Origin: Gammaproteobacteria bacterium
Lineage (GTDB): Bacteria; Pseudomonadota; Gammaproteobacteria; JAADHQ01
Reading direction: 5' to 3'
Assembly: GCA_011052215.1 (NCBI GenBank)
Contig: DRJK01000127.1
Location: 652 to 64,651 of the forward strand
DNA: 64,000 nt
Each line of letters starts with the position of its first letter. The first letter of the stretch is position 1. The notes beneath the pieces were generated by a model that was not told where the DNA came from, did not search any database, and was given only the letters and a program-made list of their open reading frames with translations. Shown here one piece after another: positions 5,220 to 45,193 of the stretch. Both the position numbers and the translations under genes were made by a program.

Positions 5220-7718
5220 TTACAGTTCACGCTTGACCTGTACCCGTTCAAAGACCTCGATCTGGTCTCCTGATTTGATGTCATTGTAATTCTTGACACC
5301 AATACCACATTCGACACCTGATTTAACTTCATTGGCCTCATCCTTGAATCGTCTGAGTGATTCCAGCTCGCCTTCATAAATTACAATGTCATCACGTAAT
5401 ACGCGTATCGGGCTATTACGCTTCACCACACCATCGATGACCAGACAGCCGGCTATTGCACCCAATGAAGATGAACTGAACACGTCACGAACTTCTGCAA
5501 GACCAATGATGTCTTCCTTGAATTCCGGTGCCAGCATTCCTGTCAGGGCTGCCTTGACCTCATCAATCAGATCATAAATAACGCTAAAGTAATGAAGGTC
5601 GATCCCCTCTTCCTCTATCATTCGTTTGGATGAAACATCTGCACGTACATTGAAACCGAAGACAACAGCACCCGATGCCATTGCAAGGTTGATATCCGAC
5701 TCATTGATACCACCCACTCCGGTGGCAACAATGTTGACTTTAACTTCATCAGTAGAAAGTTTTAATAATGAACCCGTAATTGCCTCAACCGAGCCTTGAA
5801 CATCTGCCTTGATCAGAACATTGAGCGTGCTGACTTTTCCGCTCTCCATGTTTGTAAACATGTTTTCCAGCTTGGCCTTTTGCTGATTAGCCAGCTTGGT
5901 TTCACGTGTTCTGATTTGCCTGAGGCTGGCAACCTCACGCGCCTTACGCTCATCCTTGATGGCAACGGCCTCGTCACCTGCATTGGGGGGGCCCGAAAGG
6001 CCGAGTACCTCAACTGGTATGGAAGGACCTGCCGAGTCTACCGGTTTCCCGTCTTCATTCAGTATTGCCCGAATTCGCCCATACTCATTACCTGCAACCA
6101 GTACATCGCCTTTACGCAAGGTTCCTTGCTGCACCAGGACTGTTGCAACCGGGCCGCGACCCTTGTCGAGTCTGGACTCAATAACAACGCCCTTTGCGCC
6201 GGCATCGACAGGGGCCTTCAGTTCCAGAACCTCTGACTGCAATAATATGGCTTCAAGCAAACTGTCAACACCTTCACCGGTATGCGCTGAAACATTAATA
6301 AACATGACGTCGCCACCCCAGTCTTCCGGCATCACATCTTCCTGTGATAACTCCTGTTTTACTCTATCAGGTTGTGCCTCTTCCTTGTCAATCTTGTTTA
6401 TGGCAATAATAATAGGGACACCACCTGCACGGGCATGCTGGATGGCTTCTTTTGTCTGTGGCATAACGCCGTCATCGGCCGCAACTACAATGATAACAAT
6501 GTCGGTTGATTTGGCGCCGCGTGCACGCATTGCCGTAAATGCGGCATGACCCGGCGTGTCCAGAAAAGTGATCATGCCTTTATCTGTATCAACGTGGTAA
6601 GCACCGATGTGTTGTGTTATTCCGCCTGCCTCACCAGAGGCAACACGGCTATTTCTGATATAATCCAGCAAGGATGTCTTGCCGTGGTCCACATGGCCCA
6701 TAATCGTCACAACGGGTGCACGCGGCTCAAGCGGGGCATCGGATTCTTCAACTGTTATAAGTTGTTCTTCAATGGCATCATCACTGATCAGCTTGACTGT
6801 ATGGCCCATTTCCTCAACGACTACGGTGGCTGTCTCCTGGTCCAGAACCTGATTTATCGTAACCATACTACCCAGATTCATCATGACCTTGATCACTTCT
6901 GCCGCCTTGACCGTCATTTTTTGTGCAAGCTCGGCAACTGTAATCGATTCGGGAATATTAACTTCATGAACAATGGGCGCCACCGGCCTTTCAAAACCAT
7001 GCTCCTGACTTGATGAGACCGTTACATTCCTGTTCTTGGGTTTTTTCTTGCGCCGACCACTTTTATTAAGCGACACATGTAATTCCTGGCGGCCGTAACG
7101 TGTCGACTTGTCATCCTTGCGCTTACCTTTTTTCTCAGGCTTTTTGTCACCCTTGCCACCCGCTTCTTCGGCTTTCATGGCGTTTTCCCTGGCCTTTTCC
7201 ATCTCCTGACGCAGCAATGCCTCTTCTTCTGCTTTTTTGCGTACCTCTTCTTCTTTGGCCTTGAGTTTCGCCTGCGCTTCTTCCTGTTGCCTGAACTCTT
7301 CCTTCTCTTTTTCTTTGGCTTCTTCTTCTGCCTTTAACCTGGCCTCTTCCTGCGCTTTAAGTTCGGCTTCTTCCTTTTTCTTGCGCTCTTCCTCCTCGAG
7401 GATATCCGAACGTTTGACGTATGTGCGCTTCTTGCGTACTTCTACATTAACTGTCTTGCTCTTGCCATGCGTACCTGTTACACGCAATTCACTTTGAGTC
7501 TTTCTTCGTAATGTAATCTTGCGCGGTCCTTCCCCGTCAGCACCCATATTTTTCCCATGACTGAGACGCAGATGATCCAGCAATTGCATCTTCTGCCGAT
7601 CTGTTATCAAGTCAGTATCATTGGAGAAATTCAATCCTGCTTCACCCAGTTGGGCCAGCATTTTTTCTGCTGGTACTCCAACGACTTCAGCAAACTGCTT
7701 GACTGTTACATCTGACAT
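5220..7718 (-). CDS. infB: Translation initiation factor IF-2
   Basis: 832 aa. It has a charged E/K/A-rich N-terminal repeat region, a GTPase G-domain ([21 protein letters not shown]) and C-terminal beta-barrel domains. Confidence 0.97.
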
Positions 7719-7736: not shown

Positions 7737-9236
7737 TTAACCTTGCTGATCTTCTTCAAACCAATGCGCCCTGGCGGCCATAATAAGCTCGCCCGCATTC
7801 TCATTACTCATCTCCTTGATTTCAACAAGCTCATCAACTGCCAACTCGGCCAAATCATCAAGAGTGGTAATTTTCTTGCCTGCCAGTACATATGCCAGAT
7901 CTTCTGTCATCCCTTCCAGATCCAGCAGTTCCTGTTCGGGTGTACTGTCCCCGATCTGCTCTTCATTGACTATGGCCCGGGTCAGAAGCACATCGCGTGC
8001 CCGACCTCGTAGTTCCTCTACTATGGCTTCATCAAATTCCTCAATTTCCAGCAACTCACTTGCCGGCACATAGGCAATCTCGTCAATTGAGGAAAAACCT
8101 TCCTGGGCGAGGATAACGGCTACTTCCTCGTCGACATCGAGTTGCTCCATAAACAGTTTTTGCACTACCTCATGCTCGCCTTCAGACTTTTCTTCCGCCT
8201 GGGACTCGCTCATGGCATTCAGAGTCCAGCCAGTCAGTTCACTGGCCAACTTCACATTCTGTCCCCCTCGACCTATTGCCTGTGATAATTGTTCATCACT
8301 CACGGCAATATCCATGCTTGAGGATTCTTCATCGACAACAATGGATACAACCTCGGCAGGCGACATTGCATTGATTACAAACTGGGCAGCATTCTCGTCC
8401 CATAAAATGATGTCAACGCGCTCACTGGACAATTCATTGGAAACTGTTTGCACACGTGACCCGCGCATACCCACACATGCTCCAATTGGATCAATTCTTG
8501 GATCATTGGATTTTACCGCAATTTTTGCCCGCAGGCCCGGGTCGCGAGATGCCCCCCGTATTTCGATCAGCCCCTGGCCCACTTCCGGCACCTCAAGCTT
8601 GAATAACTCAATCAGGAATTCAGACATGGTGCGACTGACAAACAGCTGCGGCCCCCTCGGTTCTGAGCGCACCTCATATAAATAACCACGTACGCGATCA
8701 CCGGAGCGCAATGCCTCTCTTGGAATCATCTGTTCACGTGGAATCATTGCCTCGACATTTCCACCCAGGTCGATATAAACGTTGCCACGCTCCATCCTTT
8801 TAACTATTCCACTGACCAGCTCTCCTATTCGGTCCTGGTAGGCATCGACAACCTGGGCACGCTCTGCTTCCCTGACCTTCTGGACAATAACCTGCTTGGC
8901 CGTCTGCGCAGCGATTCGCCCGAAATCTACCGAGTCCATGTCCTCTTCATAATAGTCATCAATATCCAGGTCCGCGTCATCGTATTGGGCCGCACTTAAA
9001 GTCATCTGACGTTGTGGAAATTCCATCTCATCATCATCCGCTATGACCTGCCATCGACGAAATGTTTCGTAATCTCCCGTACTGCGATCAATTTTAACCC
9101 TTGTTTCTATATCACCACCGTGTTTTTTCCTGGCGACAGACGCAAGTGCGGCTTCAATTGCCTCAAAGATAATATCTTTGGCAACGCCCTTTTCGTTAGA
9201 CACTGTATCAACAACCAATAATATCTCTTTATTCAT
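7737..9236 (-). CDS. nusA: Transcription termination/antitermination factor NusA
   Basis: MNKEILLVVDTVSNEKGV matches the NusA N-terminus, with S1, KH1/KH2 and two acidic C-terminal repeat domains. The ORF extends 7 codons upstream (to 9257); the start is chosen by homology. Confidence 0.95.
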   Translation of the reverse strand: MNKEILLVVDTVSNEKGVAKDIIFEAIEAALASVARKKHGGDIETRVKIDRSTGDYETFRRWQVIADDDEMEFPQRQMTLSAAQYDDADLDIDDYYEEDMDSVDFGRIAAQTAKQVIVQKVREAERAQVVDAYQDRIGELVSGIVKRMERGNVYIDLGGNVEAMIPREQMIPREALRSGDRVRGYLYEVRSEPRGPQLFVSRTMSEFLIELFKLEVPEVGQGLIEIRGASRDPGLRAKIAVKSNDPRIDPIGACVGMRGSRVQTVSNELSSERVDIILWDENAAQFVINAMSPAEVVSIVVDEESSSMDIAVSDEQLSQAIGRGGQNVKLASELTGWTLNAMSESQAEEKSEGEHEVVQKLFMEQLDVDEEVAVILAQEGFSSIDEIAYVPASELLEIEEFDEAIVEELRGRARDVLLTRAIVNEEQIGDSTPEQELLDLEGMTEDLAYVLAGKKITTLDDLAELAVDELVEIKEMSNENAGELIMAARAHWFEEDQQG

Positions 9237-9265
9237 CCCATCATTTCCTGCAACCAAGAACGTAA

Positions 9266-9721
9266 TTAAAATTCCGGTGCCAGTCTCGCCTGGTCAATAT
9301 TATCCAATGACAACCGAACCTCTTGCCCCTGCATATCAATAATAACTTCATTTCCCTGCCATCCTTGCAGAATACCCTTGTAATTCTTCCTGCCTTGCTG
9401 CGCCCTGACCAGCTTCACCTTTATGGATTGTCCGGCAAATCGCTCAAAATCACCCGGCTTGAATAACGGTCTATCCAGACCCGGTGAGGAAATTTCCAGA
9501 TTATAGTTTCCCGGCACCGGATCCTCTACATCAAGAACCCCACTCAGCTGATGACTGACAGCCTGGCAATCATCAAGCATAATTCCTTGATTTTTATCGA
9601 TATATACGCGCAGAACGCCTGACTTATCGTGCATCAGATGCTCGACCCCGACCAGCTCATAGCCCATCGATGTCACCACATCTTCAACGATGCGCTGTAT
9701 TTTTTCAGGCACCTGCCTCAT
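9266..9721 (-). CDS. rimP: Ribosome maturation factor RimP
   Basis: VxxxGYELVGVE...LRVYID...DDCxxVSHQLSxVLDVEDP...YNLEISSPGLDRPL matches RimP. Start trimmed to Met16 of the ORF (ORF runs to 9766). Confidence 0.9.
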   Translation of the reverse strand: MRQVPEKIQRIVEDVVTSMGYELVGVEHLMHDKSGVLRVYIDKNQGIMLDDCQAVSHQLSGVLDVEDPVPGNYNLEISSPGLDRPLFKPGDFERFAGQSIKVKLVRAQQGRKNYKGILQGWQGNEVIIDMQGQEVRLSLDNIDQARLAPEF

Positions 9722-10020
9722 ATATTTCGCCGCTGTAAAAACTAAAAGTGGGCCCTTAAGGCCCACTTATTATTACTCTTGGAAATTCCAAGACGGCATT
9801 ATACCTACTTAGCCTGATTTAGCCAATAGACTTATGAAAAATATACAGAATTATCACAATCGAAAGCCTGACAGAGACTGATTTTTAAAATGATCACACC
9901 GGCACCGGTGCTAGCGTTATGAAATATAGTATCTATTTGATTTTTATATTGTTATTAATTTTAAAAGCAAACAGACTTCAGGCACATTGTTCAGGAATCA
10001 CCGGGTTGACCAGCCCATGT

Positions 10021-10830
10021 TTATCTGGCAAAAGGATTTTTTACACTCTTCAATCTGGTCACCAGGCTGTTTTTTTTATTCATCTCCAGCTCGTCCTTCT
10101 CACGCTCCTCTGCCAGAAACAGCTCCTTTTGCCGCTCCATTCTTGCCTCCCGAACAAGCCTCTGGAAATATGCCTTCTCGACATTGGGTAAATCCATTTT
10201 CAGGAAACCGTTCTCCTTTCTGACTATATACTTGCCCAGCTCGTCCAGAAAAGTGTCATCAACCTGCTGTGGGTTGAGACAGGACTGCTGCCAGAGCAGG
10301 TCTTCATAATTCCTGATAGTCATGACAATACCCGAGGTTTCAAGCTCACCCTTGAATTCAAAGGATACCGGGACAACGGATTCAACAGTGATATCTGCAC
10401 CGATCACTTCGTTATTTCCACCGCGCTCCCTTTTACAGCCATAGCGTATTCCGGCTCGATCCATCTCCTCCATAAGTGCATGCAGTTTTTTCTTACCCTC
10501 TACTGAAAAAGTCAATTCCTCCCCGGATTCACACCTGAAGCTGAACTGGACTTTTTTCAGTACCTCCTTGCGCCCCTTTTCCATGTGATAACCTGTTTGT
10601 CTCAGGTCTGCCAGGGTGCCATAACCGGAAATATTGTAATCAACCCTGATATCCGGTTTCAGATAGTTAAGATGCAACTCAAGCTCCTTGAGGTAATTGT
10701 AGATCCTCTCGATTCTTGGATTGATTTCCTTGTCGTAGATTTCACGCAAGCGGTGAGCACTCTCTTTCTCAAGTTGCTCTTTCTTCCTTGCTACTTCCGA
10801 TGCCTGTCGCAGTTCATCTAATAGTGCCAT
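10021..10830 (-). CDS. Uncharacterized 269-aa protein with coiled-coil-like charged N- and C-terminal segments; no family recognized
   Basis: Long ORF with an RBS-like GGGACAGG upstream. Lys/Glu/Arg-rich heptad-like ends flank a central mixed alpha/beta region. It lies 105 bp downstream of, and co-oriented with, the RR-PP2C gene. Confidence 0.6.
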   Translation of the reverse strand: MALLDELRQASEVARKKEQLEKESAHRLREIYDKEINPRIERIYNYLKELELHLNYLKPDIRVDYNISGYGTLADLRQTGYHMEKGRKEVLKKVQFSFRCESGEELTFSVEGKKKLHALMEEMDRAGIRYGCKRERGGNNEVIGADITVESVVPVSFEFKGELETSGIVMTIRNYEDLLWQQSCLNPQQVDDTFLDELGKYIVRKENGFLKMDLPNVEKAYFQRLVREARMERQKELFLAEEREKDELEMNKKNSLVTRLKSVKNPFAR

Positions 10831-10935
10831 TACCTGTCCCTTTTAAACCTGACTGTATCCAGTAATTATCTGTTTACTAAAATTCATAATCAAAATATCA
10901 CTATTGCAAAAGAACTGAAATCCTTAAATCTTCAC

Positions 10936-12138
10936 TCAGCCACTTGCGCTGATCGTTTCCCCAGGTATCACATCAACCTGTTCCAGGTCGACAGATTCAC
11001 AGGTTAATTCCAGAAATGTAACATCATCATCCTGATCCAGTTCCTGCCTGAATGTATTCAGATTCAATAATACTTTCTCAAACCTGTCTCCGTCATTTCC
11101 AAGCAGAATCCCCCTGAGACGTTCCTCACCAAACCTTTCCCCGTCTTCCTTGCCAGCCTCAATCACGCCGTCACTGTAACAATAAAACTTGTCACCCTTT
11201 TCAACCTGTAAAATCTGTGTTGATGAATCAAATTCTTCATCCTTTACTATTCCAAGGGGTAAATGACTGGACTGAATAACACCTTTAAGGCCACCATCAC
11301 TATCCAACCAGTATGATCCGGGCATCCCGCCACTCCAGACTGCCAGTTGCTCGCCCGTTTTATCCAGTTCAAACAAGGTCGCGGCACAAAACATCCCGAT
11401 GGGCATGATGGATAACAATTGTCTGTTAATTTCATTTGCTATCATTGAAATCGGCAGCCCTTTCTGTGCCATCTTGAAAAAAATCATGACAACGGGTAAC
11501 GTTCCCATTGCAGCCCTCAGGCCATGCCCGGTAAAATCACCCAGTAGTCCAAATAACCCGCCTTCCGGCCCACGTTTTATCAGCAAGACATCACCATTAA
11601 AGGTTGACATGGGTGAAATATGGTATTTGATATAGGCAGGATCAAAATAGCTTTGCTTCAGCGCTTTATCAAAAAAATGCTCGATCATTTCTTTCTCAAG
11701 AATCAGGTCCTCGTTCTGAATCTCGAGTAATTTATTTTTCTCACTCAACTCCTGGCTGAGTTCCCGGATTCTTAAATGTGCATTGATTTTTGACTTCAGT
11801 ATGTCGATATTGACAGGCTTGTTTATGAAATCATCACCACCCGACTCCAGTGCCGTTGTCAGTGAATCCTCTACAGTCAGTGCCGTTACAAATATTATGG
11901 GCGTGTACTGCCATCCGGCTTTTTTCTTTATCCTTGTCGCCGCTTCATATCCATCCATCTCTGGCATATTGACGTCCATCAGAATCATGTCCGGATCGAC
12001 CTCGTCATATAGCCTGATCGCTTCCATACCATTTTCGGCTTCAGTTGTTATATAGCCGCAATTGGCAAGAGACCTGGCCAACATTTTCCGGTTGGCCAGG
12101 ACATCATCAACGATGAGAATATTTACTGGTTTATCCAT
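10936..12138 (-). CDS. Response regulator with C-terminal PP2C/SpoIIE-type Ser/Thr phosphatase domain (RsbU/RssB-like)
   Basis: N-terminal receiver domain (ILIVDDVxxNR...D...LMDVNMPEMDG...K) with the phosphoacceptor Asp. A coiled-coil linker follows. The SpoIIE-like domain retains its metal-binding Asp motifs (GDFTGHG, YSDGV, DDDVT). Confidence 0.85.
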   Translation of the reverse strand: MDKPVNILIVDDVLANRKMLARSLANCGYITTEAENGMEAIRLYDEVDPDMILMDVNMPEMDGYEAATRIKKKAGWQYTPIIFVTALTVEDSLTTALESGGDDFINKPVNIDILKSKINAHLRIRELSQELSEKNKLLEIQNEDLILEKEMIEHFFDKALKQSYFDPAYIKYHISPMSTFNGDVLLIKRGPEGGLFGLLGDFTGHGLRAAMGTLPVVMIFFKMAQKGLPISMIANEINRQLLSIMPIGMFCAATLFELDKTGEQLAVWSGGMPGSYWLDSDGGLKGVIQSSHLPLGIVKDEEFDSSTQILQVEKGDKFYCYSDGVIEAGKEDGERFGEERLRGILLGNDGDRFEKVLLNLNTFRQELDQDDDVTFLELTCESVDLEQVDVIPGETISASG

Positions 12139-12440: not shown

Positions 12441-12476
12441 CCATAAAAAAGACCGCGTTCTGGCAAGGATACGCGG
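12441..12476 (-). terminator. Rho-independent terminator downstream of tRNA-fMet
   Basis: On the minus strand, a CCGCGT...ACGCGG stem is followed by TCTTTTTTATGG, ~50 nt after the tRNA 3' end. The structure is symmetric, so it could act bidirectionally. Confidence 0.5.
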
Positions 12477-12526
12477 CCTTTTTGTGGCAATATTGAATAT
12501 GTTAATACATTCAATGCCTTCTGTAG

Positions 12527-12603
12527 TGGTAGCGGGGACAGGATTTGAACCTGTGACCTTCGGGTTATGAGCCCGACGAGCTGCCAGACTGCTCCACCCC
12601 GCA
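12527..12603 (-). tRNA. metY: Initiator tRNA-fMet (anticodon CAT)
   Basis: The reverse complement reads ...GCGGGGTGGAGCAGTCTGGCAGCTCGTCGGGCTCATAACCCGAAGGTCACAGGTTCAAATCCTGTCCCCGCTACCA. It is near-identical to E. coli tRNA-fMet, with three GC pairs in the anticodon stem and a 1:72 mismatch, both initiator hallmarks. Confidence 0.9.
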
Positions 12604-12664
12604 CTAGCAGCGCGAATTTTACAGTGCATTATGCTGTTTTACAAGACCATCCTGCATTTCTTGC

Positions 12665-12698
12665 AAAAAAAAACGGGCATCCCGGGATGCCCGTTTTG
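12665..12698. terminator. Bidirectional rho-independent terminator (perfect 22-nt palindromic hairpin flanked by A-run and T-run)
   Basis: AAAAAAAA-ACGGGCATCCCGGGATGCCCGT-TTTG, immediately downstream of the DsrE-like gene stop. Confidence 0.65.
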
Positions 12699-12720
12699 TC
12701 ACTATAAATTAAACCCTGAA

Positions 12721-13173
12721 TCAAGGTTTAATGTACAGGTAACCCTTCTGTTGCAGATCAGCAACTTCAGCAACACCTGACGGAACAATCTTGGCATTCA
12801 GGTTTATCTTGTTTTTGTTGATCTTCTTGCCACGGATGGTATTTGCACAGATTTCGAACTTGACACCACGGTTGGCCAGCTTCTGAATTTGCGCATCGAA
12901 GGCATGACCCTTCTTGTCTTTTGAACCATCAACCAATGCGAAGGCACCACTTGAGTGAGTGACAACGATGACTTCGATATTCTTGTCACCCAGGGCATTC
13001 AGGTGGTTTTTCACATTACGCAAGGCACCATATGCAGTCTGCAGATTATTTACATGGTAAACCACTTTTTGCTGGTTATAACCGTTTTTGGCTGGCTTCA
13101 GCTCTTGTCCACCACAACCAACGAGTGCAGTGCTTATAAGTGCCGCTGCAGCAATTGCTGTTAATTTATTCAT
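12721..13173 (-). CDS. Secreted lipoprotein, DsrE/DsrF-like family (tentative)
   Basis: 150 aa. Signal peptide plus lipobox (LISTALVGC). The remainder resembles the DsrE/TusD-like alpha/beta fold (VVYHVNN...IEVIVVTHSSG...GVKFEICANT...GYLYIKP). Strong AGGAGGAG RBS. Confidence 0.5.
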   Translation of the reverse strand: MNKLTAIAAAALISTALVGCGGQELKPAKNGYNQQKVVYHVNNLQTAYGALRNVKNHLNALGDKNIEVIVVTHSSGAFALVDGSKDKKGHAFDAQIQKLANRGVKFEICANTIRGKKINKNKINLNAKIVPSGVAEVADLQQKGYLYIKP

Positions 13174-13225
13174 ACTTGTTACTCCTCCTAGCAGGATATT
13201 TTTTTAATTTACACGCAACCTAGGT

Positions 13226-13241
13226 TGCAAGCTCTGTTCCA
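13226..13241 (-). promoter_or_regulatory. Sigma-54 (RpoN) -24/-12 promoter for the DsrE-like gene
   Basis: The minus strand reads TGGAAC-AGAGC-TTGCA, with exact GG/GC spacing matching the TGGCAC-N5-TTGCW consensus. It lies ~50-65 bp upstream of the ATG at 13173. Confidence 0.55.
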
Positions 13242-13386
13242 CATTAGCAAGTTTTTCTGAATATGTATAGATATCATGAACATAAAAAATTAAACATTAG
13301 TAAACCCTGTTTATCTATGTTGTTATTACAGTGCATATTGCATCTATCTTCAGGCCGTTTACAAAGAAACGTTGTAATATACAACC

Positions 13387-14751
13387 CTATTTTGTATCAC
13401 TGAAGCGTCGTAGTTTTCTCCACAATGTGGTCTTGTCTATTCCCAGAATACTGGCGGCCTTTGTTTTTTTCCCTCCCGATAATTCCAGTACATGCTCGAT
13501 ATACTTCTGCTCCAGTTTTTCAAGTGACGGAAACTCGTCTCGAGGAAATTGAATACCGGAATTGTTACTAAACACTTCCAGCTTCATACCCGCCTCCGGC
13601 CATGTCAGTATCGGTGTCTCTGACAGAATCACACATCTTTCCACGACATTGCGTAATTCACGAATATTTCCTGTCCAGTCTTCATTATAGAGGTGTTGCA
13701 TCGCGACAGAATCAAATCCTGTGACCTTTCTTTTATAACGTTTGGAAAATTCTTTCACGAAGTGTTCGACGAGTGACGGTATATCTTCACGTCGGTCATT
13801 CAACGAAGGTACATGTATATTAATTACATTCAATCGATGGTAAAAATCATGGCGAAATTCGCCTTTCTCAACCATGGCTTCAAGATCGCGATTACTGGCG
13901 GCAATAATGCGCATGTCAATGGGTACAGATACTGTGCTGCCTACACGTGTAATTGTCTGGCTTTCGATTGCACGCATGAGTTTCATCTGCATCGAATCTG
14001 TAATATTACATATCTCGTCAAGGAATAGTGTTCCCCCGCTTGCCTGCTCCATGAGCCCTTTTTTTCTCTGTGATGCGCCGGTGAAGGCTCCTTTCTCATG
14101 TCCGAATAGTTCGCTTTCAAGCAAGGTTTCTGTCAGGGCACCACAATCGATAACAATAAAAGGTGATTCCTTTCTTGGGCTGTAATCGTGCAGGGCACGT
14201 GCTACCAGTTCCTTGCCCGTTCCTGACTCGCCCGTAATAATAACATTACAACTGACTGTTGCGACCTTCTCTATGGTTGAGAACAGACTTTTCATAATGG
14301 GTGTGTCGCCAATCATGCCGAAACGGTTTCGGCATGTCTGAAGCTGTTTCTTCAGTATCTGGTTCTCCTCCTTTAAACGACGGGCATCGATGTTTCTGTC
14401 AATAATCAGTTTTAATTCCTCGAAGTCAAAAGGCTTTTTAATAAAGTCAGTTGCCCCCAGTTTCATGGCTTCGACTGCATTTTCGACAGATGAATAACCG
14501 GTCATCACCAATACCGGCAAATCCTTGTCAATCTCGCGTACTTTTGACAAAAGATCGAACCCACTCATTTCCGGCATTCGAAGGTCTGTAACCAGCAGAT
14601 CTCCGCCCGATGTCTCAAACTCCTTCAGACATTCCCCTGCTGACTGATAGACGCTGCAGTTATAACCTGCCTGCCCACAATTCCTTTGCATAATCGAGCA
14701 TGTAACTGAATCATCATCAACAAATAATATTTTTAAATCACCCCGTTGCAT
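13387..14751 (-). CDS. Sigma-54-dependent response regulator (NtrC family enhancer-binding protein)
   Basis: 454 aa. Receiver domain, AAA+ sigma54-interaction domain with GESGTGKE Walker A and a GAFTGA motif, and a C-terminal Fis-type HTH. Confidence 0.9.
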   Translation of the reverse strand: MQRGDLKILFVDDDSVTCSIMQRNCGQAGYNCSVYQSAGECLKEFETSGGDLLVTDLRMPEMSGFDLLSKVREIDKDLPVLVMTGYSSVENAVEAMKLGATDFIKKPFDFEELKLIIDRNIDARRLKEENQILKKQLQTCRNRFGMIGDTPIMKSLFSTIEKVATVSCNVIITGESGTGKELVARALHDYSPRKESPFIVIDCGALTETLLESELFGHEKGAFTGASQRKKGLMEQASGGTLFLDEICNITDSMQMKLMRAIESQTITRVGSTVSVPIDMRIIAASNRDLEAMVEKGEFRHDFYHRLNVINIHVPSLNDRREDIPSLVEHFVKEFSKRYKRKVTGFDSVAMQHLYNEDWTGNIRELRNVVERCVILSETPILTWPEAGMKLEVFSNNSGIQFPRDEFPSLEKLEQKYIEHVLELSGGKKTKAASILGIDKTTLWRKLRRFSDTK

Positions 14752-16690
14752 TTTTTACCTCAGGTGTTACATGTTCAATTTGTTCTTTTATTACGCCGGT
14801 TTTTGGCAGAATAATTACGACACGTGCACCACCTTCCGGCCTGTTCTCCAATGTAATAGAACCCCCGTGTTTATTGATAATTCCATAACTGACTGAAAGC
14901 CCGAGTCCGGTCCCACTGCCTTCCGGTTTGGTTGTAAAAAACGGACTGAACGCCCTGGCTATGTTCTCATTACTGACACCCTCTCCACTATCAATAATTT
15001 CCGCAACTATTTTTCCGTCAGATTGCCTGGCCTTCATGGTAATGGTTGATCCCGGGCCTGATGCATGTAATGCATTTACAAGTACATTCACCAGCACTTG
15101 CTGGAGTTGACCTGAGTCACCTTGCATGGTCAACGGGCTTTCAAGGTCCTTTATCAATTCGACTTCTGATGACTTCATTCGATGCTCAAAAACTGCCGCG
15201 GTATCCGACATTAATCGGGAGAAATCAAACTCTTCATATTTTGGTTTGTTCTCGCGAGCAAAGTTCAATACACCTTGTACGATTCTCGCACATCGCCGGC
15301 CTTCACTTTGTAAGGCGTTCAGGTCCTCTTTTATCTGTTTGCTGCTATCCGGAACATTCTGGTCGATCAGTGATGCGAGAGACATAATATTCATCAACGG
15401 ATTATTGATTTCATGACCTATGCCTGCAGCCATCTGACCTACTGCAGCAAGACGTTCAGACTGCCTTGCGGCAATTTCGGCCTTGATACGCTCATCCTGT
15501 GCCTTTTCAAGGGTTTTTGTCAGATAATTAAACGCCTTTCCTGCAAGTCCTATTTCATCGCGACGATTTTCACCATAATGTGAGCGCCGATCACCATCGG
15601 CATATTGTGTAATGATCTGTGCCAGATCGTGAACCGGCCTGGCCAAGCGTGAAGCCGCCCAGCGTGCAATAAACAAACCCACCAGAAAAACCAGTAGTAT
15701 CAGGGAAACTATCCAGTTTCTCAAACCCGAAATGGGTTCGAGTATGGCTTCCCTCGCCATTTCTATAACCAGTAACCATTTTGTATCCCTGTCCAGATAG
15801 GGTGAAAATTTATAATAATAAAATAATCTGTCGTTATCAGGCGTGACCATACCTGTTTTGCTACCACTGTTGATTTTTTTCCAGGCATCATCACCCAACT
15901 CGGTTGATAACCTGAAATTGGTGCCCAGTTGGTTGGCGAATCTTTTATTCTGGTCTTCGTGATAAAGGTAAATTCCGTCACGCTCTTTATCTTTGTTCAG
16001 TTCAACAATATATGCCTTACCCGGGTAACCCGCCAGTGCAGAATGCACGGCATCATCTACCCTTTTACCCCACATATTGACTATGAGTAGCCCAAAAGGA
16101 GATTCCAGTTCATCGCGTATGGCAAGGCTGTATCGAACCAGGGCCGGGCAGAAATCCACATCACCCAGGACCTTTCCCCTTTCAAAGTCTGATATGGAGA
16201 TATCTTCATCTGTTTTTTTGGCCCTGCGAAAAAATGATTTGTAGGCTATATCTTCAACATAGGACCTGCCACTGGCCAGCTTGTCTTTATACGGAATGAG
16301 CTTTCCTTCCTTGATTTTGACCAGCGTCTTGCCACTCATGTCGGTAAAACGGATCGCCTGAATACTGGGTACCGTGGCCTGATAATTAAGGAAGAAGGCC
16401 ATCAGCTCAATTGCCCTGTTTTCATACTGGGAGTCTTTGTCACTGCTGCTGACTACCGAGGCAAAATCACGGACCACTGGTACCTTGGCAAGTCCCCTTA
16501 CAATCGACTTCTGGTTGTCCATCAAGGTTGATATTTCCTTCGCCAGTTTGCTCAGCGTTTTGTTCATCTCCTTGCTGGTTCTGTCTTCCAGGTCACTTTC
16601 AATGTGACCAACAACACCAAACAACAGAATAAGCAATGGAACCATTGCCATAAGGCCGAGTACGAGGAAAAGTTTTTGACGCAGCTGCAT
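14738..16690 (-). CDS. Sensor histidine kinase with large periplasmic sensing domain
   Basis: 650 aa. Two TM helices bracket a ~280-aa periplasmic domain, followed by HAMP, HisKA (AAGIGHEINNPL) and HATPase_c (G-boxes). It overlaps the regulator gene by 14 nt, indicating an operon. Confidence 0.85.
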   Translation of the reverse strand: MQLRQKLFLVLGLMAMVPLLILLFGVVGHIESDLEDRTSKEMNKTLSKLAKEISTLMDNQKSIVRGLAKVPVVRDFASVVSSSDKDSQYENRAIELMAFFLNYQATVPSIQAIRFTDMSGKTLVKIKEGKLIPYKDKLASGRSYVEDIAYKSFFRRAKKTDEDISISDFERGKVLGDVDFCPALVRYSLAIRDELESPFGLLIVNMWGKRVDDAVHSALAGYPGKAYIVELNKDKERDGIYLYHEDQNKRFANQLGTNFRLSTELGDDAWKKINSGSKTGMVTPDNDRLFYYYKFSPYLDRDTKWLLVIEMAREAILEPISGLRNWIVSLILLVFLVGLFIARWAASRLARPVHDLAQIITQYADGDRRSHYGENRRDEIGLAGKAFNYLTKTLEKAQDERIKAEIAARQSERLAAVGQMAAGIGHEINNPLMNIMSLASLIDQNVPDSSKQIKEDLNALQSEGRRCARIVQGVLNFARENKPKYEEFDFSRLMSDTAAVFEHRMKSSEVELIKDLESPLTMQGDSGQLQQVLVNVLVNALHASGPGSTITMKARQSDGKIVAEIIDSGEGVSNENIARAFSPFFTTKPEGSGTGLGLSVSYGIINKHGGSITLENRPEGGARVVIILPKTGVIKEQIEHVTPEVKNATG

Positions 16691-44029: not shown

Positions 44030-44845
<816 letters not shown>

Positions 44846-44858
44846 TTAAATAATTATA

Positions 44859-45089
44859 CTGCTGTCACGTTAACCTGTAACAAGTATAGTTGAAACGTAA
44901 ACGGCAAGTCGGTTTTGAGCTAAACAGGGCATTGCGGACATGAAACCGGCATAGCCAGATCAAGACACGCAAAAGATGCCATCCCTGGCCGCTCGGCCGC
45001 CGCATCCCTGCGGCAGACGGTCTTTATCTGGCTATGCCGGTTTCATGTCCTCACATTGATGCTCGCTGCAAAAGTTAACGGGACAGCAG
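44859..45089. repeat. Intergenic repeat element copy A (full length, MITE-like, with 16-bp terminal inverted repeats and a perfect 25-bp internal stem)
   Basis: Termini CTGCTGTCACGTTAAC / GTTAACGGGACAGCAG. The internal arms 44936-44960 and 45006-45030 are perfect reverse complements. Its reverse complement aligns along most of its length with the copies at 53007-53115 and 59047-59243. Confidence 0.6.
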
Positions 45090-45193
45090 TGAAATAATTA
45101 CTGGAAGCCGGCCAGACTCCTGATACTACAATACAGCAATGTATGATGATAATAAATGGAGTGGGTCGATTTGAGCCAGACCTGCGTCCAGAA

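What the first reader, a model, noticed from the sequence alone, without database searches (positions are those of the whole stretch)
10021..12138. Response-regulator/PP2C phosphatase plus unknown coiled-coil protein inserted into the conserved metY-rimP-nusA-infB locus
In E. coli and most gammaproteobacteria, initiator tRNA-fMet (metY) lies directly upstream of rimP-nusA-infB. Here two co-oriented genes sit between them.

- The first is a 400-aa receiver + coiled-coil linker + SpoIIE/PP2C phosphatase. It resembles RssB/RsbU but keeps all metal-binding Asp motifs, so it looks catalytically active.
- The second is a 269-aa protein with charged coiled-coil ends, which I cannot place in any family.

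No STAS-domain antagonist or RsbW-type kinase, the usual partner-switch substrates, is present. The 269-aa protein is therefore a candidate novel phospho-substrate or adaptor of the phosphatase. That would be a two-gene signalling module of undescribed composition, embedded in a translation-factor operon.
Basis: partly seen in the sequence, partly recalled or inferred. Interest (0 to 1): 0.6.

Follow-up and report, generated by a model that had tools for sequence, protein, structure and literature searches.

The report
Orphan phosphatase regulator beside unannotated scaffold gene
Two real genes do sit between the initiator tRNA and rimP, but they are neighbours only in one narrow lineage: one is an ordinary response-regulator phosphatase separated from its usual partner, and the other belongs to a widespread, unannotated protein family that elsewhere is fused to phospho-threonine- and c-di-GMP-sensing domains.

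Summary
On the minus strand the order is tRNA-fMet, a 400-aa REC+SpoIIE/PP2C protein, a 269-aa protein, then rimP-nusA-infB.

**The phosphatase.**
- It has a complete receiver domain and all metal-binding Asp motifs.
- It is not RssB by NCBIfam cut-offs.
- Its relatives (52-60% identity) are HsbR-like. Of the best 120, 105 carry a C-terminal RsbW-type kinase domain. In two of the three relatives' contexts examined, a STAS gene lies immediately upstream.
- The window protein lacks the kinase domain. No STAS gene occurs anywhere in the 64 kb.

**The 269-aa protein.**
- It has no Pfam, NCBIfam or PDB relative.
- It belongs to a family of at least 554 clusters (at 50% identity). The members whose source is named come from uncultured Gammaproteobacteria.
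- The model shows an alpha/beta sandwich between long helices, followed by a basic amphipathic tail.

**Is it a two-gene module?** Adjacency to the phosphatase holds only in relatives at least 78% identical.
- At 54-55% identity the gene sits upstream of rimP-nusA with no phosphatase.
- In eight other loci it follows dnaJ.

A conserved module is therefore not supported.

**Link to signalling.** The family domain is fused to FHA in ten family representatives, to a Hanks kinase in one, and to a FimW-like PilZ module in seven. A general link to signalling is therefore plausible.

rimP has its own conserved promoter and leader.

The parts
12527..12603 (-). Initiator tRNA-Met (CAU), metY-like
   Evidence: ARAGORN; Rfam tRNA, 64 bits; 94% column identity to E. 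coli metY, GGG/CCC anticodon stem, 1:72 mismatch.
12616..12644 (-). Promoter-like site upstream of the tRNA (TTGTAA-17-TAAAAT)
   Evidence: Consensus scan. This is a prediction only.
12445..12478 (-). Terminator-like hairpin plus T-run just downstream of the tRNA (GGCCGCGT, 12-nt loop, ACGCGGTC, TTTTTT)
   Evidence: Read directly from the sequence. The scan did not list it because the loop is longer than 8 nt.
10936..12138 (-). 400-aa response-regulator phosphatase: REC (about 7-118), helical linker (about 120-165), SpoIIE/PP2C (about 192-379). It is HsbR-like but lacks the C-terminal RsbW-type kinase domain.
   Evidence: Pfam; motif positions; relatives and their architecture; 100% identical to a protein annotated as a fused response regulator/phosphatase from an uncultured gammaproteobacterial genome (P0160).
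10021..10830 (-). 269-aa member of an unannotated protein family. Model elements: helix 2-57, roughly 10-stranded sheet with helices 113-126 and 192-202, flexible 205-217, helix 218-263, basic amphipathic tail.
   Evidence: 554 clusters; alignment; AF2 pLDDT 87, pTM 0.71; no solved homologue; tail analysis.
9798..9826 (-). rimP operon promoter-like site (TTGGCT-17-TATAAT), conserved in relatives
   Evidence: Scan. Conserved in window, L004, L026 and L027, while the sequence further upstream is not.
9746..9768 (-). GC-rich hairpin plus T-run in the rimP leader, about 25 nt before the rimP ATG (attenuator-like)
   Evidence: Scan; stem invariant and loop variable across four lineages; no match to Rfam RF01770.
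9266..9721 (-). rimP (151 aa from the ATG at 9721), followed by nusA 7737-9257 and infB 5220-7718
   Evidence: Pfam RimP_N and RimP C-terminal domain; ORF lists.

Best explanation
The locus holds two functionally independent genes that became neighbours only in one narrow lineage. The variable stretch lies between the initiator tRNA and the rimP operon's own promoter.

**Gene 1: the phosphatase.**
- It is an orphan, kinase-less member of the HsbR-like clade of receiver-PP2C response regulators.
- Inferred mechanism: a histidine kinase or Hpt protein encoded elsewhere phosphorylates Asp55. This activates the Mn/Mg-dependent SpoIIE-type phosphatase through the helical linker.
- The phosphatase then removes the phosphate from a phospho-Ser on a STAS-domain anti-sigma antagonist encoded elsewhere in the genome. 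That is a classical partner switch.

**Gene 2: the 269-aa protein.**
- It belongs to a large, unannotated protein family found in uncultured Gammaproteobacteria.
- Inferred mechanism: it is a peripheral-membrane scaffold. An alpha/beta-sandwich head sits on a helical stalk and is anchored by a basic amphipathic C-terminal tail.
- It would dock signalling domains. In other genomes those domains are covalently attached: FHA, a Hanks kinase, or a FimW-like PilZ c-di-GMP module.

**Shown:** the domain content, the family's size, the fusions, the gene contexts and the conserved rimP promoter and leader.
**Inferred:** enzymatic activity, membrane binding, the scaffold role, and the existence of a STAS partner elsewhere.
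For: **The phosphatase has a known kind of partner.**
- Its relatives at 52-60% identity are REC+SpoIIE proteins. Of the best 120, 105 are at least 540 aa and carry an RsbW-like C-terminal domain; 14 are 410 aa or shorter and lack it.
- One relative carries a source label naming it the HptB-dependent secretion and biofilm response regulator.
- In L014/L015 and in L017 a 101-aa STAS gene overlaps the start of the phosphatase gene. These loci sit within a cluster of hybrid histidine kinase, RR-HD-GYP and MCP genes.
- The window holds none of these genes.
- The HsbR/HsbA mechanism is described in PMC5085249.

**The pairing is recent.**
- A PP2C neighbour occurs only in L004 (96%) and L018 (78%).
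- L026 and L027 (54-55%) have the family gene followed by rimP-nusA, with no PP2C and no tRNA in the DNA held upstream (about 6 kb in L027, about 1.7 kb in L026).
- Eight loci have dnaJ immediately upstream of the family gene. Other contexts are ccmH/pgi, LysR/ABC-F and pqiA.
- An all-against-all comparison of neighbours across the first 13 loci found no conserved neighbour.

**The family is a modular signalling domain.**
- All eight roughly 360-aa members scanned with Pfam carry FHA. A custom FHA profile finds it in 10 of 159 family representatives.
- A separate FHA gene lies immediately upstream in L032 and L034.
- P0153 is a Hanks kinase fused to this domain, and it keeps the tail.

**The tail.** The 116 stand-alone members have a median net charge of +4 over the last 22 residues, with GLFxRLKK-like motifs resembling the MinD membrane-targeting sequence.

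**rimP has its own signals.** Its promoter and leader are conserved.
Against: - The two genes are co-oriented, 105 bp apart, and stay together down to 78% identity. Co-transcription and some functional coupling in this lineage cannot be excluded.
- FHA and kinase fusions make a phospho-regulated role for the family plausible, and a PP2C next door would fit that.
- No STAS gene was seen, but only 64 kb of the genome is available.
- The promoter-like sites are barely above shuffled expectation: 11 found against 6.4 +/- 2.3.
Confidence: 0.6

Rival explanations
1. One reading: the 269-aa protein is the substrate, adaptor or localisation partner of the adjacent REC-PP2C phosphatase. In this lineage they would form a new two-gene module that replaces the lost STAS/kinase arrangement.
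For: - The genes are co-oriented, 105 bp apart, and the pair is kept in L004 (96%) and L018 (78%).
- The phosphatase lacks the kinase domain, and no STAS gene is nearby.
- The family is tied to phospho-threonine signalling by FHA and kinase fusions.
Against: - The pairing is absent at 54-55% identity, where the gene still precedes rimP. It is also absent from about 35 other family loci.
- No Ser/Thr column is conserved across the family. The commonest conserved Ser (the DS motif, 74% of sequences) is GR in the window's clade.
- SpoIIE-type phosphatases of this clade have STAS substrates (PMC5085249).
- FHA domains read phospho-Thr made by Hanks kinases, which are usually opposed by a different PP2C subfamily (general knowledge).
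- A 14-nt motif shared upstream of both genes is at chance level and is not conserved in L018.
Confidence: 0.12
2. The 269-aa protein is functionally tied to the rimP-nusA-infB operon, in ribosome maturation or in transcription-translation coupling, rather than to signalling.
For: The gene lies directly upstream of rimP-nusA in every lineage of its clade for which flanks are available, from 54% to 100% identity (window, L004, L026, L027). This is the most persistent neighbourhood of the window's own clade.
Against: - More distant members lie between dnaJ and dapB or in unrelated contexts.
- A conserved promoter separates the gene from rimP.
- All fusion partners are signalling domains (FHA, kinase, PilZ); none is a ribosome or RNA domain.
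Confidence: 0.07
3. The 400-aa protein is the organism's RssB orthologue, an adaptor that delivers RpoS to ClpXP.
For: It has the same REC plus PP2C-like architecture. The P. aeruginosa response-regulator structure 3eq2, which I take from memory to be RssB (PA2798), is the only PDB entry that aligns beyond the receiver, over residues 6-327.
Against: - The NCBIfam RssB equivalogs match only the receiver, at 64.9 bits against cut-offs of 329 (E. coli type) and 700 (Pseudomonas type).
- The closest relatives have the HsbR-type architecture with STAS neighbours.
- The catalytic Asp motifs are intact, whereas E. coli RssB's domain is degenerate (general knowledge).
Confidence: 0.04

Closest known systems
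HsbR (PA3346) of the Pseudomonas HptB-HsbR-HsbA partner-switch pathway
   Same: It has an N-terminal receiver followed by a SpoIIE/PP2C phosphatase with intact metal sites. Relatives at 52-60% identity have the full REC-PP2C-RsbW-kinase architecture, and one carries a source label naming it the HptB-dependent response regulator. Two of the three relatives' contexts examined have a STAS (HsbA-like) gene immediately upstream.
   Different: The window protein stops after the PP2C domain, so it has no kinase domain. There is no STAS gene, and the hybrid-kinase, RR-HD-GYP and MCP genes of the relatives' clusters are absent from the 64 kb. An Hpt gene was not specifically searched for. Direct comparison with PA3346 itself was not possible with these tools.
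RsbU / RsbP / SpoIIE family of PP2C partner-switch phosphatases
   Same: Pfam SpoIIE domain at 4.2e-35. It aligns with B. subtilis SpoIIE across the metal-binding motifs.
   Different: The regulatory input is a receiver domain, not an RsbT-binding, PAS or membrane domain. The substrate is unknown.
FimW (PA4958), a PilZ-type c-di-GMP effector that moves to the cell poles and stimulates type IV pili (PMC10212136, PMC12564702)
   Same: Seven long relatives of the 269-aa family carry, after the shared domain, a module recorded as Pfam FimW_N and ending in a PilZ-fold domain with RxxxR and [D/N]xSxxG motifs.
   Different: The window protein has only the shared N-terminal domain, with no FimW_N and no PilZ. 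None of the stand-alone members has a FimW_N hit on record. The shared domain is therefore probably an extra module, not part of canonical FimW (inference).
E. coli metY-rimP-nusA-infB operon
   Same: An initiator tRNA lies upstream of rimP-nusA-infB-rbfA-truB, all in the same orientation.
   Different: The tRNA and rimP are 2.8 kb apart instead of 207 bp, and two genes lie between them. The Rfam rimP leader RF01770 scores 102 bits in E. coli but is absent here. rimP has its own conserved promoter and hairpin leader.
MinD / FtsA-type C-terminal amphipathic membrane-targeting sequences
   Same: Most stand-alone family members end in a short basic amphipathic motif, for example KKGFLGGLFKGK or GLFKRLFSRN.
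   Different: In the window protein the motif is weaker (SLVTRLKSVKNPFAR). Membrane binding is untested. In FHA-fused forms the motif is internal, lying just before the FHA domain.

Membership tests
HsbR-type response regulator (REC-PP2C-RsbW kinase) | Receiver domain with a phospho-acceptor Asp and the conserved T and K residues | tested here: met
   Response_reg 4.9e-27; D11, D12, D55, T85, K107.
HsbR-type response regulator (REC-PP2C-RsbW kinase) | SpoIIE/PP2C domain with the metal-binding Asp motifs | tested here: met
   SpoIIE 4.2e-35; D183, D201, D323, D370-372; the last three motifs align with those of SpoIIE.
HsbR-type response regulator (REC-PP2C-RsbW kinase) | C-terminal RsbW-like (HATPase_c_2) kinase domain | tested here: not met
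   The protein ends at residue 400. tblastn with a relative's kinase domain finds nothing in the window. Of 120 relatives, 105 have the domain and 14, including this one, do not.
HsbR-type response regulator (REC-PP2C-RsbW kinase) | Adjacent STAS (HsbA-like) substrate gene | tested here: not met
   No STAS match anywhere in the 64 kb. It is present immediately upstream in L014/L015 and L017. The rest of the genome could not be examined.
HsbR-type response regulator (REC-PP2C-RsbW kinase) | Phosphatase activity on phospho-STAS that is controlled by receiver phosphorylation | not testable with these tools
   This needs biochemistry.
RssB | Score above the NCBIfam equivalog cut-off (NF007969 or NF045505) | tested here: not met
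   64.9 bits, receiver only, against cut-offs of 329 and 700.
E. coli-type metY-rimP-nusA-infB operon | tRNA-fMet immediately upstream of rimP, with the RF01770 leader between them | tested here: not met
   The gap is 2.8 kb and holds two genes. There is no RF01770 match at the rimP leader. The E. coli control scores 102 bits.
FimW-like c-di-GMP effectors | FimW_N region plus a C-terminal PilZ domain with RxxxR and [D/N]xSxxG | tested here: not met
   The 269-aa protein ends after the shared domain. A profile of the long forms' C-terminal module finds nothing in the window. The module is present only in long relatives.
Unannotated 269-aa family (stand-alone form) | Full-length homology, including the conserved MGLLDELR N-terminus, HLNY, Q78, Y81, C100, invariant N174 and R204 | tested here: met
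   phmmer E-values from 1e-62 down to 1e-18 against about 150 listed representatives over residues 1 to about 250; alignment A1.
Substrate of a Ser/Thr phosphatase | A conserved phosphorylatable Ser/Thr | tested here: inconclusive
   No Ser/Thr column reaches 75% in the family. The three partly conserved ones (74%, 63%, 65%) are R87, S166 and P215 in the window protein.

The most novel reading that the evidence does not exclude
The 269-aa protein represents an undescribed membrane-associated scaffold domain of Gammaproteobacteria that connects phospho-threonine signalling (FHA, Hanks kinase) with c-di-GMP signalling (FimW-like PilZ effectors). In the window's lineage an orphan, kinase-less HsbR-like phosphatase has been recruited next to it as a new input or output. 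That would be a partner switch that has traded its STAS substrate for this scaffold.
Probability: 0.1. Interest if true: 0.6.

Novelty: new member of a known kind. Interest (0 to 1): 0.3.

Why it matters
As a claimed new two-gene signalling module, the finding does not hold up, so it is not a new kind of system.

Two things remain useful.
- The 269-aa protein flags a sizeable family: at least 554 clusters at 50% identity, with no Pfam or NCBIfam model and no solved homologue. Its repeated fusions to FHA, a Ser/Thr kinase and a FimW-like PilZ module make it a reasonable candidate for a localisation or scaffold domain in surface-sensing and phospho-signalling pathways. It merits a family definition and one localisation experiment.
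- In this lineage the rimP-nusA-infB operon has been uncoupled from the initiator tRNA. It carries its own conserved promoter and hairpin leader, which differs from the Rfam rimP leader.

Tried and rejected
**No family or structural assignment for the 269-aa protein**
- Pfam, NCBIfam, PADLOC and a PDB sequence search gave no assignment.
- The afdb50 structure library was not available.

**Searches that returned little**
- The word-indexed protein search found only 7-11 relatives. The exhaustive search was needed to see the family.
- The first genome scan, with the 62-sequence alignment, failed for lack of a conserved stretch. A smaller alignment worked.

**Ideas tested and dropped**
- A mobile-element origin next to the tRNA: no repeat of the tRNA 3' end and no flanking repeats. 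GC content is only slightly lower than in the flanks.
- A 14-nt motif shared upstream of both genes: it is at chance level and is not conserved in L018.
- Remnants of a STAS gene or a kinase domain in the intergenic DNA: none.
- A second family copy or remnant between dnaJ and dapB in the window: none.

**Not available**
The position of FimW_N within the long forms is therefore inferred, not measured.
Full report
**1. The observation**

On the minus strand the window carries, in order:
- tRNA-Met(CAU), 12527-12603
- a 400-aa ORF, 10936-12138
- a 269-aa ORF, 10021-10830
- rimP, 9266-9721
- nusA, 7737-9257
- infB, 5220-7718

The tRNA is an initiator type. It is 94% identical by column to E. coli metY. 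It has the GGG/CCC anticodon stem and an unpaired 1:72 position, U/U here. In E. coli MG1655, metY ends 207 bp before rimP, and the Rfam rimP leader RF01770 lies between them at 102 bits. In the window the distance is about 2.8 kb.

**2. The 400-aa protein**

Pfam finds Response_reg (4.9e-27, residues 7-118) and SpoIIE (4.2e-35, residues 192-379).
- The receiver has D11, D12, D55, T85 and K107.
- The phosphatase has D183, D201 (LGDFTGHG), D323 (YSDG) and D370-372. Alignment with B. subtilis SpoIIE structures places the last three motifs on its SDGMGNG, SDG and DD motifs.

At sequence level the enzyme looks competent. Activity itself is an inference.

It is not RssB by NCBIfam. Only the receiver matches, at 64.9 bits, against cut-offs of 329 and 700.

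A protein search returns an identical protein annotated as a fused response regulator/phosphatase from an uncultured gammaproteobacterial genome. The next hits are 52-60% identical.
- Of the best 120 relatives, 105 are at least 540 aa and carry a C-terminal domain homologous to an RsbW-type kinase.
- Fourteen, including this one, are 410 aa or shorter and lack that domain.
- One relative is labelled by its source as the HptB-dependent secretion and biofilm response regulator, that is, HsbR.

Three relatives' gene contexts were examined.
- In L014/L015 and in L017, a 101-aa STAS gene overlaps the start of the phosphatase gene. The cluster also contains a hybrid histidine kinase, an RR-HD-GYP protein and an MCP-signal protein.
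- L016 has no STAS gene.

tblastn with those STAS, kinase-domain, MCP and HD-GYP proteins finds none of them in the 64 kb.

The protein is best described as an orphan, kinase-less HsbR-like phosphatase. In Pseudomonas, phosphorylated HptB switches HsbR from kinase to phosphatase acting on the STAS protein HsbA, which then changes partners (PMC5085249).

**3. The 269-aa protein**

It has no Pfam family above threshold, no NCBIfam or PADLOC family, and no PDB sequence match. The word-indexed search found only 7 relatives. The exhaustive profile-free search found far more: 554 clusters at E <= 1e-3 and 333 at E <= 1e-10.

Most members are stand-alone proteins of 240-300 aa. Where a source names them, they are "hypothetical" or "FHA domain-containing". 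They come from uncultured Gammaproteobacteria, including Chromatiales, Thiogranum and Halieaceae.

The alignment shows several conserved features:
- a conserved N-terminus starting at Met1 (MGLLDELR)
- HLNY, Q78, Y81, C100
- an invariant N174
- FLDxLGxYILR

The AF2 model is confident, at pLDDT 87 and pTM 0.71. In order it has:
- a long N-terminal helix
- a roughly ten-stranded antiparallel sheet with two short helices
- a flexible linker
- a long charged C-terminal helix

Stand-alone members end in a short basic amphipathic motif such as GLFKRLFSRN or KKGFLGGLFKGK. The median net charge over the last 22 residues is +4. This resembles MinD-type membrane-targeting sequences. Membrane binding is an inference.

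**4. Are the two genes a module?**

I collected about 40 loci that encode family members and searched their ORFs for the window's phosphatase, rimP and nusA, and for STAS, kinase and FHA.

A PP2C neighbour exists only in L004 (96% identical) and L018 (both genes 78% identical).

The next relatives are L026 (54%) and L027 (55%, on a 126-kb contig). They have the family gene directly upstream of rimP-nusA, but no phosphatase or tRNA in the DNA held upstream (about 1.7 kb in L026, about 6 kb in L027). Their upstream genes are a HlyD-family gene and a PAAR-domain ORF with small unknown ORFs.

In eight further loci the family gene follows dnaK-dnaJ. In five of them dapB-carA comes next. Other contexts are ccmH/pgi, LysR/ABC-F, pqiA, gshA and motAB. 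An all-against-all comparison of neighbours across the first 13 loci found no conserved partner.

The older association of this clade is with rimP, not with the phosphatase.

**5. Is it embedded in the operon?**

The roughly 120 nt before the rimP ATG are conserved among window, L004, L026 and L027, whereas the rest of the spacer is not. The conserved part contains:
- TTGGCT-17-TATAAT (9826-9798)
- a small hairpin
- a GC-rich hairpin with a T-run (9768-9746), whose stem is invariant and whose loop varies

It does not match RF01770. A hairpin plus T-run also follows the tRNA, and promoter-like sites precede each of the two genes.

The promoter-like sites are predictions, and their count is only about two standard deviations above shuffled sequence. 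Even so, the conserved rimP promoter and leader show that the two genes lie upstream of the operon's control region, not inside it.

There is no sign of a mobile element. The tRNA 3' end is not repeated, there are no flanking repeats, and GC is only slightly lower than in the flanks.

**6. What the family does elsewhere**

- **FHA fusions.** All eight members of about 360 aa that were scanned with Pfam carry an FHA domain, seven at the C-terminus and one at the N-terminus. A custom FHA profile finds it in 10 of 159 family representatives.
- **FHA neighbours.** In L032 and L034 a separate 191-aa FHA protein is encoded immediately upstream.
- **Kinase fusion.** P0153 is a Hanks-type Ser/Thr kinase followed by this domain, and it keeps the amphipathic tail.
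- **Long forms.** Seven members of 507-935 aa carry a conserved C-terminal module of about 580 aa.
  - For P0015 this module is on record as Pfam FimW_N.
  - It contains invariant RxxxR and [D/N]FSTGG motifs.
  - Pfam PilZ matches it only weakly, at E = 0.004.
- **What FimW is.** It is a P. aeruginosa c-di-GMP effector that moves to the poles and stimulates type IV pili (PMC10212136, PMC12564702).
- **Other long members.** They have disordered, proline- and alanine-rich tails.

The shared domain therefore behaves as a module attached to phospho-threonine- and c-di-GMP-reading domains. No Ser/Thr is conserved across the family, and the partly conserved positions are R87, S166 and P215 in the window protein. 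A role as a phospho-substrate has no direct support.

**7. Verdict**

My best explanation, at a confidence of about 0.6, has three parts:
- An orphan HsbR-like phosphatase whose STAS partner is probably encoded elsewhere.
- A stand-alone member of an unannotated, probably membrane-associated, scaffold family.
- A recent juxtaposition of the two in a variable stretch between the tRNA and the rimP promoter.

The rival that they work together in this lineage keeps about 0.12. The reasons are that the pair is co-oriented and kept to 78% identity, and that the family is tied to phospho-signalling.

The finding is real as an observation. As a proposed new module it is ordinary to mildly interesting. 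The family itself is worth defining.

Noticed in passing
window 9721-9840 (minus strand); L004 1640-1790; L026 2640-2760; L027 6960-7080: The rimP leader is conserved across four lineages: TTGGCT-17-TATAAT, a small hairpin, then a GC hairpin with a T-run about 25 nt before the ATG. It does not match the Rfam gammaproteobacterial rimP leader RF01770, which scores 102 bits in the E. coli control. It may be a different NusA-autoregulation attenuator.
   Followed up: partly
L031, L037-L041, L044, L050: In eight metagenome loci the 269-aa family gene, in short or long form, lies immediately after dnaK-dnaJ. In five of them it lies before dapB-carA. In the window the same dnaJ-dapB spacer (44834-45193) is empty.
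   Followed up: yes
L032 5364-5939 and L034 5378-5953: A stand-alone 191-aa FHA-domain protein is encoded immediately upstream of, and co-oriented with, the family gene. This is the split version of the FHA fusions.
   Followed up: partly
[not shown]
   Followed up: yes
window 12527-12603: The initiator tRNA has U1 and U72 instead of the C1/A72 of E. coli. The 1:72 mismatch typical of bacterial initiators is kept, but with different bases.
   Followed up: no
window 12668-12763 (minus strand): A weak, sub-threshold match to Rfam RF01770 (24 bits against a gathering score of 47; E = 0.75). It overlaps the terminator hairpin of the DsrE-like gene upstream of the tRNA and is probably chance.
   Followed up: no
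window 12721-16690 (minus strand): Three genes sit between the nuo operon and the initiator tRNA: a DsrE-like lipoprotein, an NtrC-type sigma-54 response regulator, and a Cache-HAMP histidine kinase. In E. coli this neighbourhood holds argG and yhbX instead. The kinase overlaps the NtrC-type regulator and is probably its cognate, not that of the phosphatase.
   Followed up: no
L027 277-5780: Upstream of the family gene in the 55%-identical relative lies a PAAR-domain ORF, a pentapeptide-repeat ORF, and several small ORFs of unknown function. This looks like a type VI effector/immunity islet. It shows that the region upstream of the family gene is variable.
   Followed up: no
P0085, P0138, P0073, P0053, P0149, P0151, P0139: In the FHA-fused forms the basic amphipathic motif is retained just before the FHA domain. 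It always contains a Ser or Thr, in the pattern R-[IF]-x-[ST]-[LM]-F. This could be a phospho-site, or simply conservation within one clade.
   Followed up: no
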